64,000 nucleotides of DNA from Somniosus microcephalus (Eukaryota), in contig CM126206.1 of NCBI GenBank assembly GCA_052327205.1, positions 8,680,001 to 8,744,000 on the forward strand, written 5' to 3'. A model generated the notes under the pieces. That model saw only the letters and a program-made list of their open reading frames with translations. It ran no database searches and was not told where the DNA came from. A program made the position numbers and the translations under genes. Within the stretch, counting starts at the first letter, position 1. Each line of letters starts with the position of its first letter. Positions 58,720-64,000 of the stretch are shown here, piece after piece.

Positions 58720-58849
58720 ATGTGTGTGGGGATGAAGAGGTCCGAGGGAAGATACTGGACCTGAAACACAAGCATGACGCAATCATGAAATCACACGACA
58801 AGCACAAGACGGCCTTGCAGCGGCGAACCTCCAGCACGGGGAGCAGAGG
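58720..58849 (+). CDS. PPP1R16A: PPP1R16A coding exon 8 (gene continues beyond the window)
   Basis: ccctgttccag acceptor; (D)[42 protein letters not shown](G); donor AGG|GTGAGT; phase 1 to 2. Confidence 0.92.
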
Positions 58850-61800
58850 GTGAGTGTGGGTCTGGGGATCTATACAGGGAGCAGAGGGTGAGTGTGGGTC
58901 TGGGGTCTGCAGGGAGCAGAGGGTGAGTGTGGGTCTGGGGATCTATACAGGGAGCAGAGGGTGAGTGTGGGTCTGGGGATCTATACAGGGAGCAGAGGGT
59001 GAGTGTGGGTCTGGGGATCTACAGGGAGCAGAGAGTGAGTGTGGGTCTGGGGATCTACAGGGAGCAGAGAGTGAGTGTGGGTCTGGGGATCTACAGGGAG
59101 CAGAGAGTGAGTGTGGGTCTGGGGATCTACAGGGAGCAGAGAGTGAGTGTGGGTCTGGGGATCTACAGGGAGCAGAGAGTGAGTGTGGGTCTGGGGATCT
59201 ACAGGGAGCAGAGAGTGAGTGTGGGTCTGGGGATCTACAGGGAGCAGAGGGTGAGTGTGGGTCTGGGGATCTACAGGGAGCAGAGGGTGAGTGTGGGTCT
59301 GGGGATCTATACAGGGAGCAGAGGGTGAGTGTGGGTCTGGGGATCTACAGGGAGCAGAGAGTGAGTGTGGGTCTGGGGATCTACAGGGAGCAGAGGGTGA
59401 GTGTGGGTCTGGGGATCTACAAGGAGCAGAGAGTGAGTGTGGGTCTAGGGATCTATACAGGGAGCAGAGGGTGAGTGTGGGTCTGGGGATCTACAGGGAG
59501 CAGAGGGTGAGTGTGGGTCTGGGGATCTACAGGGAGCAGAGGGTGAGTGTGGGTCTAGGGATCTACAGGGAGCAGAGAGTGAGTGTGGGTCTAGGGATCT
59601 ACAGGGAGCAGAGGGTGAGTGTGGGTCTGGGGATCTATACAGGGAGCAGAGAATGAGTGTGGGTCTGGGGACCTACAGGGAGCAGAGAGTGAGTGTGGGT
59701 CTAGGGATCTATACAGGGAGCAGAGGGTGAGTGTGGGTCTGGGGATCTACAGGGAGCAGAGAGTGAGTGTGGGTCTGGGGACCTACAGGGAGCAGAGGGT
59801 GGGTCTGGGGATCTACAGGGAGCAGAGAGTGAGTGTGGGTCTGGGGATCTACAGGGAGCAGAGGGTGAGTGTGGGTCTAGGGATCTATACAGGGAGCAGA
59901 GGGTGAGTGTGGGTCTGGGGATCTACAGGGAGCAGAGAGTGAGTGTGGGTCTGGGGATCTACAGGGAGCAGAGGGTGAGTGTGGGTCTGGGGATCTATAC
60001 AGGGAGCAGAGAGTGAGTGTGGGTCTGGGGATCTACAGGGAGCAGAGGGTGAGTGTGGGTCTGGGGATCTACAGGGAGCAGAGGGTGAGTGTGGGTCTGG
60101 GGATCTACAGGGAGCAGAGGGTGAGTGTGGGTCTAGGGATCTATACAGGGAGCAGAGGGTGAGTGTGGGTCTGGGGATCTACAGGGAGCAGAGGGTGAGT
60201 GTGGGTCTGGGGATCCACAGGGAGCAGAGAGTGAGTGTGGGTCTGGGGATCTACAGGGAGCAGAGGGTGAGTGTGGGTCTAGGGATCTATACAGGGAGCA
60301 GAGGGTGAGTGTGGGTCTGGGGATCTACAGGGAGCAGAGAGCGAGTGTGGGTCTGGGGATCTACAGGGAGCAGAGGGTGAGTGTGGGTCTGGGGATCTAC
60401 AGGGAGCAGAGAGTGAGTGTGGGTCTGGGGATCTACAGGGAGCAGAGGGTGAGTGTGGGTCTGGGGATCTACAGGGAGCAGAGGGTGAGTGTGGGTCTGG
60501 GGATCTACAGGGAGCAGAGAGTGAGTGTGGGTCTGGGGATCTACAGGGAGCAGAGGGTGAGTGTGGGTCTAGGGATCTATACAGGGAGCAGAGGGTGAGT
60601 GTGGGTCTGGGGATCTACAGGGAGCAGAGAGTGAGTGTGGGTCTGGGGATCTACAGGGAGCAGAGAGTGAGTGTGGGTCTGGGGATCTACAGGGAGCAGA
60701 GAGTGAGTGTGGCTCTGGGGATCTACAGGGAGCAGAGAGCGAGTGTGGGTCTGGGGATCTACAGGGAGCAGCGAGTGAGTGTGGGTCTGGGGATCTACAG
60801 GGAGCAGAGGGTGAGTGTGGGTCTGGGGATCTACAGGGAGCAGAGAGTGAGTGTGGGTCTGGGGATCTACAGGGAGCAGAGAGTGAGTGTGGGTCTGGGG
60901 ATCTACAGGGAGCAGAGAGTGAGTGTGGGTCTGGGGATCTACAGGGAGCAGAGAGAGAGTGTGGGTCTGGGGATCTACAGGGAGCAGAGGGTGAGTGTGG
61001 GTCTGGGGATCTGCAGGGAGCAGAGAGCGAGTGTGGGTCTGGGGATCTACAGGGAGCAGAGGGTGAGTGTGGGTCTGGGGATCTACAGGGAGCAGAGAGT
61101 GAGTGTGGGTCTGGGGATCTACAGGGAGCAGAGGGTGAGTGTGGGTCTGGGGATCTACAGGGAGCAGAGGGTGAGTGTGGGGATCGACAGGGAGCAGAGA
61201 GTGAGTGTGGGTCTGGGGATCTACAGGGAGCAGAGAGTGAGTGTGGGTCTGGGGATCTACAGGGAGCAGAGAGTGAGTGTGGGTCTGGGGATCTACAGGG
61301 AGCAGAGAGTGAGTGTGTGTCTGGGGATCTACAGGGAGCAGAGAGTGAGTGTGGGTCTGGGGATCTCTGCAGGGAGCAGAGAGTGAGTGTGGGTCTAGGG
61401 ATCTATACAGGGAGCAGAGGGTGAGTGTGGGTCTGGGGATCTACAGGGAGCAGAGGGTGAGTGTGGGTCTGGGGATCTACAGGGAGCAGAGGGTGAGTGT
61501 GGGGATCTACAGGGAGCAGAGAGTGAGTGTGGGTCTGGGGATCTACAGGGAGCAGAGAGTGAGTGTGGGTCTGGGGATCTACAGGGAGCAGAGGGTGAGT
61601 GTGGGTCTGGGGATCTACAGGGAGCAGAGAGTGAGTGTGGGTCTGGGGATCTACAGGAAGCAGAGAGTGAGTGTGGGCCTGGGGATCTACAGGGAGCAGA
61701 GAGTGAGTGTGGGTCTGGGGATCTACAGGGAGCAGAGAGTGAGTGTGGGTCTGGGGATCTATACAGGGAGCAGAGAGTGAGTGTGGGTCTGGGGATCTAT

Positions 61801-64000
61801 AGGGAGCAGAGGGTGAGTGTTGGTATGTGGATCTACAGGGAGCAGAGGGTGAGTGTGGGTCTGGGGATCTACAGGGAGCAGAGAGTGAGTGTGGGTCTGG
61901 GGATCTCCAGGGAGCAGAGAGTGAGTGTGGGTCTGGGGATCTATACAGGGAGCAGAGAGTGAGTGTGGGTCTGGGGATCGACAGGGAGCAGAGGGTGAGT
62001 GTTGGTATGTGGATCTACAGGGAGCAGAGGGTGAGTGTGGGTCTGGGGATCTACAGGGAGCAGAGGGTGAGTGTGGGTCTGGGGATCGACAGGGAGCAGA
62101 GAGTGAGTGTGGGTCTGGGGATCTACAGGGAGCAGAGAGTGAGTGTGGGTCTGGGGATCTGCATGGAGCAGAGAGTGAGTGTGGGTCTGGGGATCTACAG
62201 GGAGCAGAGGGTGAGTGTGGGTCTGGGGATCTACAGGGAGCAGAGAGTGAGTGTGGGTCTGGGGATCTACAGGGAGCAGAGAGTGAGTGTGGGTCTGGGG
62301 ATCTACAGGGAGCAGAGAGTGAGTGTGGGTCTGGGGATCTATACAGGGAGCAGAGGGTGAGTGTGGGTCTGGGGATCTACAGGGAGCAGAGGGTGAGTGT
62401 GGGTCTGGGGATCTACAGGGAGCAGAGAGTGAGTGTGGGTCTGGGGATCTACAGGGAGCAGAGGGTGAGTGTGGGTCTCGGGATCTACAGGGAGCAGAGA
62501 GTGAGTGTGGGGATCTACAGGGAGCAGAGTGTGAGTGTGGGTCTGGGGATCTACAGGGAGCAGAGAGTGAGTGTGGGTCTGGGGATCTACAGGGAGCAGA
62601 GAGTGAGTGTGGGTCTGGGGATCTACAGGGAGCAGAGGGTGAGTGTGGGTCTGGGGATCTACAGGGAGCAGATTTGTGAGTGTGGGTCTGGGGATCTACA
62701 GGGAGCAGAGAGTGAGTGTGGGTCTGGGGATCTACAGGGAGCAGAGGGTGAGTGTGGGTCTGGGGATCTACAGGGAGCAGAGGGTGAGTGTGGGTCTGGG
62801 GATCTACAGGAAGCAGAGAGTGAGTGTGGGCCTGGGGATCTACAGGGAGCAGAGAGTGAGTGTGGGTGTGGGGATCTACAGGGAGCAGAGAGTGAGTGTG
62901 GGTCTGGGGATCTACAGGGAGCAGAGAGTGAGTGTGGGTCTGGGGATCTATACAGGAAGCAGAGGGTGCGTGTGGGTCTGGGGATCTACAGGGAGCAGAG
63001 GGTGAGTGTGGGGATCTACAGGAAGCAGAGGGTGAGTGTGGGTCTGGGGACCTACAGGGAGCAGAGAGTGAGTGTGGGTCTGGGGATCTACAGGGAGCAG
63101 AGAGTGAGTGTGGGTCTGGGGATCTATACAGGAAGCAGAGGGTGAGTGTGGGTCTGGGGATCTACAGGGAGCAGAGGGTGAGTGTGGGGATCTACAGGAA
63201 GCAGAGGGTGAGTGTGGGTCTGGGGACCTACAGGGAGCAGAGAGTGAGTGTGGGTCTGGGGATCTACAGGGAGCAGAGAGTGAGTGTGGGTCTGGGGATC
63301 TACAGGGAGCAGAGGGTGAGTGTGGGTCTGGGGATCTACAGGGAGCAGAGGGTGAGTGTGGGTCTGGGGATCTACAGGAAGCAGAGAGTGAGTGTGGGCC
63401 TGGGGATCTACAGGGAGCAGAGAGTGAGTGTGGGCCTGGGGATCTACAGGGAGCAGAGAGTGAGTGTGGGTCTGGGGATCTATACAGGGAGCAGAGAGTG
63501 AGTGTGGGTCTGGGGATCTACAGGGAGCAGAGAGTGAGTGTGGGTCTGGGGATCTACAGGGAGCAGAGAGTGAGTGTGGGTCTGGGGATCTACAGGGAGC
63601 AGAGAGTGAGTGTGGGTCTGGGGATCTATACAGGAAGCAGAGGGTGAGTGTGGGTCTGGGGATCTACAGGGAGCAGAGGGTGAGTGTGGGTCTGGGGATC
63701 TACAGGGAGCAGAGAGTGAGTGTGGGTCTGGGGATCTACAGGGAGCAGAGATTGAGTGTGGGTCTAGGGATCTACAGGGAGCAGAGAGTGAGTGTGGGGA
63801 TCTACAGGGAGCAGAGAGTGAGTGTGGATCTGGGGATCTACAGGGAGCAGAGGGTGAGTGTGGGTCTGGGGATCTACAGGGAGCAGAGGGTGAGTGTGGG
63901 GATCTACAGGGAGCAGAGGGTGAGTGTGGGCCTGGGGATATACAGGGACCAGAGTGAGTGTGGGTCTGGGGATCTTCAGGGAGCAGAGAGTGGGTGTGGG
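58838..64000. repeat. 36(38)-bp tandem array containing the exon-8 splice donor, about 140 copies, running off the window
   Basis: Unit acagggagcagag(g/a)|gtgagtgtgggtctggggatct; the first unit overlaps the last codons of exon 8. Confidence 0.97.

What the first reader, a model, noticed from the sequence alone, without database searches (positions are those of the whole stretch)
58838..64000. The exon-8 splice donor is amplified into a >5 kb array of about 140 5' splice sites
Seen: the repeat unit spans the real exon/intron junction (GGGAGCAGAGG|GTGAGT). Most units keep GTGAGT, preceded by either AGG (as in the true donor) or AGA. Reading past the true donor gives AGA GGG TGA, an immediate in-frame stop. 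Established: GTGAGT pairs well with U1 snRNA, intronic G-runs bind hnRNP H/F, and PPP1R16A needs its C-terminal CAAX for membrane targeting. Inference: use of any downstream donor would give an NMD target or a protein truncated at ...TGSRG. The array is therefore either an extreme test of first-donor selection or a length-tunable splicing, U1-loading or NMD rheostat. Each unit also has ctacAG ten nt before GT, resembling the tandem-duplication route to new splice sites, although it lacks a pyrimidine tract.
Basis: partly seen in the sequence, partly recalled or inferred. Interest (0 to 1): 0.82.

Follow-up and report, generated by a model that had tools for sequence, protein, structure and literature searches.

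The report
Splice donor copied into shark minisatellite
A 6.7-kb tandem repeat has copied the end of one exon of a shark phosphatase-regulator gene, splice signal included, about 186 times into the next intron; the one assembled transcript seen uses only the first copy, so this is likely a tolerated repeat of a kind already known from several human and lancelet genes.

Summary
A 36-nt minisatellite starts 11 nt inside coding exon 8 of PPP1R16A (true donor at 58850) and runs to 65505, past the window edge: 186 units, 176 with GTGAGT (98 after AGA, 71 after AGG). The unit is locus-specific, and contigs from an independent short-read-type run show the repeat starting there. Any downstream donor would bring in an in-frame TGA.

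The rheostat reading is not supported. The one spliced contig joins the first donor to exon 9 in frame, though contigs miss rare isoforms. Donor positions mutate like the rest of the unit (6 alleles in 6 columns against 22 in 29, p=0.61). The internal AGs have no pyrimidine tract or branch point.

The anatomy is known: human F7 (37-bp unit, first donor used), CBS, IFI6, ABCA7 (up to about 427 units, 10.7 kb; repeat length had no effect on NMD) and lancelet 'mirages'. This scan found the same thing before in other shark, chimaera and invertebrate genomes. One addition here: two related species carry head-to-tail variants of the unit, so the array may be old. Verdict: a large new member of a known kind, of low interest.

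The parts
58720..58849 (+). PPP1R16A coding exon 8 (130 nt, VCGDEEVR...TSSTGSRG); its last 11 nt are the start of repeat unit 1
   Evidence: spliced contig
58850..58855 (+). Authentic 5' splice site (AGG|GTGAGT, phase 2), used in the spliced contig; in-frame TGA at 58851-58853 if read through
58839..64000 (+). Minisatellite with a 36-nt unit (variants of 30-38 nt), 143.6 units in the window; continues to 65505 in window-continued coordinates (186 units, 176 GTGAGT pseudo-donors); G-rich, 73 canonical G4 motifs
   Evidence: repeat depth in reads
58888..58893 (+). Second donor (unit 2), same 11-mer as the true donor; use would add 38 nt and the stop codon
59035..59040 (+). First AGA|GTGAGT variant donor (unit 6); predicted U1 duplex -8.4 against -12.0 kcal/mol for the AGG type
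12592..53558 (+). Upstream coding exons 1-7 of PPP1R16A (about 12592-12837, 41628-41699, 42174-42319, 43824-43927, 46193-46317, 51977-52102, 53484-53559)
   Evidence: tblastn with shark orthologues and boundaries read; approximate to a few nt

Best explanation
This is an exon-intron-junction minisatellite (F7/ABCA7/'mirage' type) that likely arose by tandem duplication of the last 11 or so bases of PPP1R16A exon 8 plus the G-rich start of intron 8, and is likely tolerated because splicing takes the first donor. Shown: the unit spans the real donor, is confined to this locus, exists in sequencing data, the first donor is used in the one transcript contig, the reading frame is intact, and the donor letters are not specially conserved. 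Inferred: exon definition from the exon-8 acceptor plus the upstream-first preference shown for F7 picks donor 1; the other 175 donors have no acceptor partner; rare slips to donor 2 or 3 carry a stop and would be cleared by NMD; the array grows and turns over by slippage and unequal crossing-over, perhaps helped by G-quadruplexes. The -1 G>A variant is most simply one mutation spread by that turnover.
For: First donor joined to exon 9, and exon 9 to exon 10, in contig X5 (1123 nt, depth 13.2). A run of the same sample (X2) has a unique contig ending at 58868, exactly 30 nt into the repeat, and a unit contig at depth 286 against 4. Donor +1..+6 columns carry 6 variant alleles against 22 in 29 other columns (144 36-nt units, p=0.61); GT itself has 4 where 1.6 are expected. 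Signs of ordinary turnover: a 711-nt block duplicated at 98.5% identity, and the AGG type falling from 33/61 to 16/55 along the array (Spearman p=0.005, units not independent). Background: 33 arrays cover 19% of 204 kb here, 9 of them inside this gene, so the chance that one of 9 spans a donor is roughly 5%. Genome-wide, triple MAGGTRAG arrays give 32,151 matches against 39,489 for the reversed control. Precedents: PMC1557585, PMC5954066, PMC3087553.
Against: The RNA evidence is one contig, and contigs drop rare isoforms. Raw reads were uninformative: X21 laid 8 reads whose depth profile fits copies of one molecule and does not reach exon 8, and X22 laid 0. In IFI6, CBS and ABCA7 the next one or two donors are used at low level, and in ABCA7 length tracks downstream exon skipping and expression, so 'no effect' is not shown. 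The commonest substitution falls on donor position -1 and lowers predicted U1 pairing. Unit variants in two related species suggest long persistence.
Confidence: 0.8

Rival explanations
1. ABCA7-like side effect: the array is not adaptive, but its length measurably changes PPP1R16A output through skipping of exon 9 or lower expression, by G-run or hnRNP binding or slowed transcription. Skipping exon 9 (172 nt) would shift the frame and stop 24 residues later in the last exon, escaping NMD and losing the CAAX box.
For: In ABCA7, exon 19 skipping rose 3.2-fold and expression fell with VNTR length (PMC5954066 passages). Here there are 3.2 G-runs per unit. The frame outcome is computed.
Against: The one contig includes exon 9. 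There are no length or expression data across individuals.
Confidence: 0.12
2. One reading: the array is a selected, length-tunable splicing, U1-loading or NMD switch in which downstream donors divert transcripts to decay.
For: Every downstream donor yields a premature stop. 169 sites have a predicted U1 duplex of -8 kcal/mol or better. Unit-like repeats exist in two related species.
Against: Donor letters are not protected from mutation. The first donor is used. In F7, pseudo-donors do not compete even when strengthened. In ABCA7, one-unit retention and NMD did not change with length. An in-frame stop follows from any phase-2 intron that begins GTGA (sequence logic), so it needs no selection.
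Confidence: 0.05
3. The array, or its length, is an assembly artefact.
For: One 448-nt exact internal duplication. No read spanning the array could be laid, and run X2 may be the assembly's own sample.
Against: Many distinct unit variants (45 in the window). Repeat contigs in X2 at about 70 times flank depth, and unit variants in other species (depth is only a rough hint, not a copy number).
Confidence: 0.03

Closest known systems
Human F7 intron 7 37-bp VNTR (PMC1557585; abstract, introduction, discussion and passages read)
   Same: The first unit spans the exon-intron boundary, identical pseudo-donors follow, the unit length is similar, and only the first donor is used.
   Different: 5-9 units with 4 exonic nt, against 186 units with 11 exonic nt here. 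Here over half the units carry a weaker -1 letter.
Human ABCA7 intron 18 25-bp VNTR (PMC5954066; passages read)
   Same: The repeat starts at the donor, reaches multi-kb size (298-10,678 bp, up to about 427 units), and use of the second-unit donor gives a premature stop and NMD.
   Different: Its unit begins at the GT itself. Length effects were measured there (exon 19 skipping, expression; none on NMD) and are untested here.
Human IFI6 (6-16) intron 2, CBS intron 13, LMNB2 and PDGF intron 4 minisatellites (seen only as summarised in the introduction of PMC1557585)
   Same: The donor is reiterated 10-25 times; only the first, or the first plus two, are used.
   Different: Far fewer copies.
Amphioxus 'mirages' in Adh3, globins, troponin C and PGBD5 (PMC3087553 and PMC3902484; passages read)
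   Same: Tandem copies of an exon-intron boundary, concerted evolution, and normal splicing.
   Different: Lancelet genes; both donor and acceptor types; the globin arrays are short (3-6 units in BflGb6).

Membership tests
Junction-spanning minisatellite (F7-type / mirage) | Head-to-tail tandem array with a unit of about 10-160 nt | tested here: met
   36-nt unit, 185.6 copies, 92% matches
Junction-spanning minisatellite (F7-type / mirage) | First unit spans a genuine exon-intron boundary of the host gene | tested here: met
   Exon end 58849 lies 11 nt inside unit 1; junction shown by protein homology and a spliced contig
Junction-spanning minisatellite (F7-type / mirage) | Downstream units reiterate the splice signal | tested here: met
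   176 GTGAGT in 186 units; 71 identical to the true donor over -3..+8
Junction-spanning minisatellite (F7-type / mirage) | Unit is derived from the locus, not a dispersed family | tested here: met
   148 of 149 genome-wide pattern matches lie in the array
Junction-spanning minisatellite (F7-type / mirage) | Normal mRNA is made from the authentic (first) site | tested here: met
   One spliced contig; exclusivity not shown
Junction-spanning minisatellite (F7-type / mirage) | Copy number varies between alleles (VNTR) | not testable with these tools
   No spanning long reads or second haplotype; read laying does not take long repeats
Splicing-associated tandem repeat (ABCA7-type spl-TR) | Length correlates with splicing or expression | not testable with these tools
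   Needs paired genotypes and RNA from many individuals
Selected decoy-donor / NMD rheostat | Donor positions conserved relative to the rest of the unit | tested here: not met
   6 alleles in 6 columns against 22 in 29, p=0.61; 7 in 6 against 27 in 29 with all 185 full units
Selected decoy-donor / NMD rheostat | Downstream donors used in RNA | tested here: inconclusive
   None seen, but only one contig and very few raw reads
Intron gain by tandem duplication of a proto-splice site / recursive splicing | Units contain a usable acceptor (pyrimidine tract, branch point, AG) | tested here: not met
   9 of 20 pyrimidines in 150 of 172 sites against 13-16 at 9 real acceptors; 0 TRAY motifs

The most novel reading that the evidence does not exclude
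The array has sat on this donor across several shark species, with species-specific units shrinking from about 40 to 38 to 36 nt, and works as a length-dependent dial on PPP1R16A. Exon 9 skipping would give an NMD-escaping protein without its CAAX anchor, and the majority -1 G>A variant, which weakens U1 pairing and breaks the unit's G-quadruplex motif together, would have been favoured to keep the array tolerable. With the other shark and chimaera cases noted by this scan, donor-seeded minisatellites might be a recurrent feature of cartilaginous fish genes.
Probability: 0.1. Interest if true: 0.55.

Novelty: new member of a known kind. Interest (0 to 1): 0.2.

Why it matters
If the best reading holds, this is a natural large-scale case of upstream-first donor choice: 70 further donors identical to the true one, plus about 100 weaker ones, are passed over. 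That extends the F7 result (4-8 pseudo-sites) to a shark and offers a convenient minigene substrate. It is not new in kind or size, since ABCA7 alleles reach about 427 units. It would matter more if array length were shown to tune exon 9 inclusion or membrane targeting of this phosphatase regulator, or if the array proved orthologous and long-lived across sharks.

Tried and rejected
Orthology of the repeats in organisms C and D is therefore open.

No RNA holder was listed for the exon-8 stretch. X22 laid nothing at exon 9. X6 laid nothing at exon 9 or exon 8 and covers intronic bases, so it may be DNA. None of this is evidence on expression. X10 gave no unique flank (55% of the run read).

A weak DNA hit on contig C38 (77-78% identity) is a different 39-nt array sharing a short G-rich core. 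It shows no PPP1R16 exon by tblastn (printed hits all E of 0.24 or more; output cut), so a paralogous origin was rejected.

Of the donor-like arrays, I inspected 8 loci (about 6 distinct arrays, all from the first part of contig C1, out of 30 loci). None had an evident exon before the first unit (crude test without annotation). Of 33 arrays in the 204 kb around the window, 9 of 66 array-strands have 5 or more strong donor-like sites. Six passed a loose exon filter, but only this one gave a recognised exon; the other five were not searched further.

Pfam gave no family for the 43-aa exon. MaxEntScan and SpliceAI are not available, so U1 duplex energies were used. Donor positions for exons 3 and 5 were mis-set and left out. 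A coding role for the array was rejected: 49-73 stops per frame. A literature search for shark genome + minisatellite + tandem repeats + intron gave one unrelated paper, and this locus was not searched by name. PMC10078293 (passages) gave background only. No supplements were read.

Full report
Observation. The sequence at 58839-64000 is a tandem array of a 36-nt unit (143.6 copies, 93% matches). It holds 135 GTGAGT, 70 preceded by AGA and 62 by AGG. The window lies at G000:C5:8680001-8744000 in a 6.45-Gb genome. Neighbouring stretches show the array ending at 65505 in window-continued coordinates: 186 units, 176 GTGAGT, filling 82% of an 8093-nt intron. The array ends abruptly against an open stretch that looks like the end of a LINE reverse transcriptase (label recalled, not tested).

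Host gene. The upstream exon translates to a peptide whose 19 of 19 database candidates are PPP1R16A or unnamed equivalents, best 93% to a shark protein. The TSSxGSRG end is conserved in the 9 orthologues aligned. tblastn maps 10 coding exons. Exon 8 is 58720-58849, the donor GT is at 58850, and joining to exon 9 at 66943 restores TGSRG-KVVRKV and a C-terminal CCKVM. Unit 1 thus contains the last 11 exon bases. A 20-nt unit pattern has 149 exact matches in the genome, 148 in this array, so the unit is locus-born.

Is it real? Contigs of run X2 cover 58420-58868 without a mismatch and stop 30 nt into the repeat, as expected where a word-based assembly meets a repeat. A unit contig has depth 286 against 4 for the flank. 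X2 may be the assembly's own sample, and depth is not a copy number. The exact length is unverified.

Which donor is used? At exon 9, contig X5 (same sample as X2; not on record as RNA, but spliced at both ends) has a loose end matching the unique end of exon 8 and another matching exon 10. So the first donor is used and exon 9 is included. Contigs drop rare forms. Raw reads gave 8 reads in X21, whose depth profile fits copies of one molecule not reaching exon 8, and 0 in X22. Minor use of downstream donors is not excluded. If it occurs, TGA at 58851-58853 enters the mRNA 206 nt before the last junction, an NMD target by the 50-55-nt rule (established knowledge).

Is the donor motif under selection? 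In the 144 units of 36 nt (41 of 185 full units left out for length), columns +1..+6 carry 6 variant alleles and the other 29 columns carry 22 (p=0.61); GT carries 4 where 1.6 are expected. All 185 units give 7 in 6 against 27 in 29. The -1 column is the main polymorphism (A 110, G 72, T 2). The first five units are all G, and the G share falls along the array (33/61, 24/60, 16/55). The A form lowers the predicted U1 duplex from -12.0 to -8.4 kcal/mol, still within the range of the gene's other real donors (-5.6 to -14.1, 6 scored), and removes the single-unit G4 motif. This is one event and cannot separate drift from selection. The internal CAGs lack a pyrimidine tract and branch motif.

Background. 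Tandem arrays cover 19% of the 204 kb examined: 33 arrays, 9 inside this gene. A crude chance that one of nine spans a donor is about 5%. Genome-wide, triple perfect donor motifs at 30-42-nt spacing give 32,151 matches against 39,489 for the reversed control (counts are per unit, not per array). Donor-like arrays are therefore common and not enriched. This array has 73 G4 motifs in 6.7 kb against 64 on the same strand in the other 197 kb. G4-driven instability is a plausible but untested contributor.

Relatives. Organism C (24 differences and 8 gap letters over 58423-58856) has the same exon. It also has unit-like contigs at summed depth up to 544 against 4.75, with a head-to-tail loose end. 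Organism D has a head-to-tail joint with a slightly longer spacer at depths of 5,000-8,000, but no unique flank was laid. Both imply a unit near 40 nt, and the first units here are mostly 38 nt. Orthology is likely, because the unit carries exon bases, but it is not shown.

Known systems. [quoted passage not shown] Its introduction lists IFI6, CBS, LMNB2 and PDGF. The ABCA7 VNTR starts at the donor GT, reaches 10,678 bp, and shows one-unit retention with NMD that does not depend on length, while downstream exon skipping and expression do (PMC5954066). Lancelet 'mirages' are the same class (PMC3087553; PMC3902484). I found F7 before consulting earlier scan notes. Those notes (unchecked) report similar arrays in shark GIPC1 and EMILIN1, chimaera MRPS18C and DCTN1, and invertebrates, and gave me the word 'mirage'. 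No notes exist for this genome or sequence.

Verdict. A real, large, locus-born donor-spanning minisatellite, most likely neutral and tolerated (0.8). An ABCA7-like length side effect is possible (0.12), a selected rheostat is unlikely (0.05), and an artefact is unlikely (0.03). New member of a known kind; interest 0.2.

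Noticed in passing
L009:1500-2030 (window-continued about 65500-66030): The array's last unit is cut at 21 nt and runs straight into a 5'-truncated LINE-like fragment (100 open codons; label from recall). 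No array remnant was seen beyond it.
   Followed up: partly
L023:4511-5568 (G000:C38 about 41.2475-41.2486 Mb): An unrelated 39-nt minisatellite shares a core of about 19 nt with this unit, including AGG|GTGAGT; no PPP1R16 exon nearby.
   Followed up: partly
window 52162-53100: A second G-rich array (30-nt unit, 31 copies) starts about 60 nt after the exon 6 donor of the same gene, without including the donor.
   Followed up: no
window 57493-58320; also window-continued 88129-88870, 142023-143022, 145843-146815: A 33-nt minisatellite recurs at several places in both orientations, apparently embedded in a SINE-like element. 56-nt and 67-nt units also recur at several sites, so many arrays here are dispersed families, unlike the donor array.
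   Followed up: no
runs X4 and X10 laid on window 58839-58911: The unit variants of organisms C and D contain a YTAAC branch-point-like motif just before the internal CAG, absent from this genome's units; too close to the AG to be a normal acceptor.
   Followed up: no
G000:C1 106.8, 125.4 and 130.0 Mb: A dispersed 34-nt minisatellite family carries a perfect AAG|GTGAG motif in every unit at several distant loci.
   Followed up: partly
window-continued 63905-65505: A block of about 0.7-0.9 kb of the array is duplicated at 892-nt distance with 98.5% identity: a recent unequal crossover or a local assembly duplication.
   Followed up: partly
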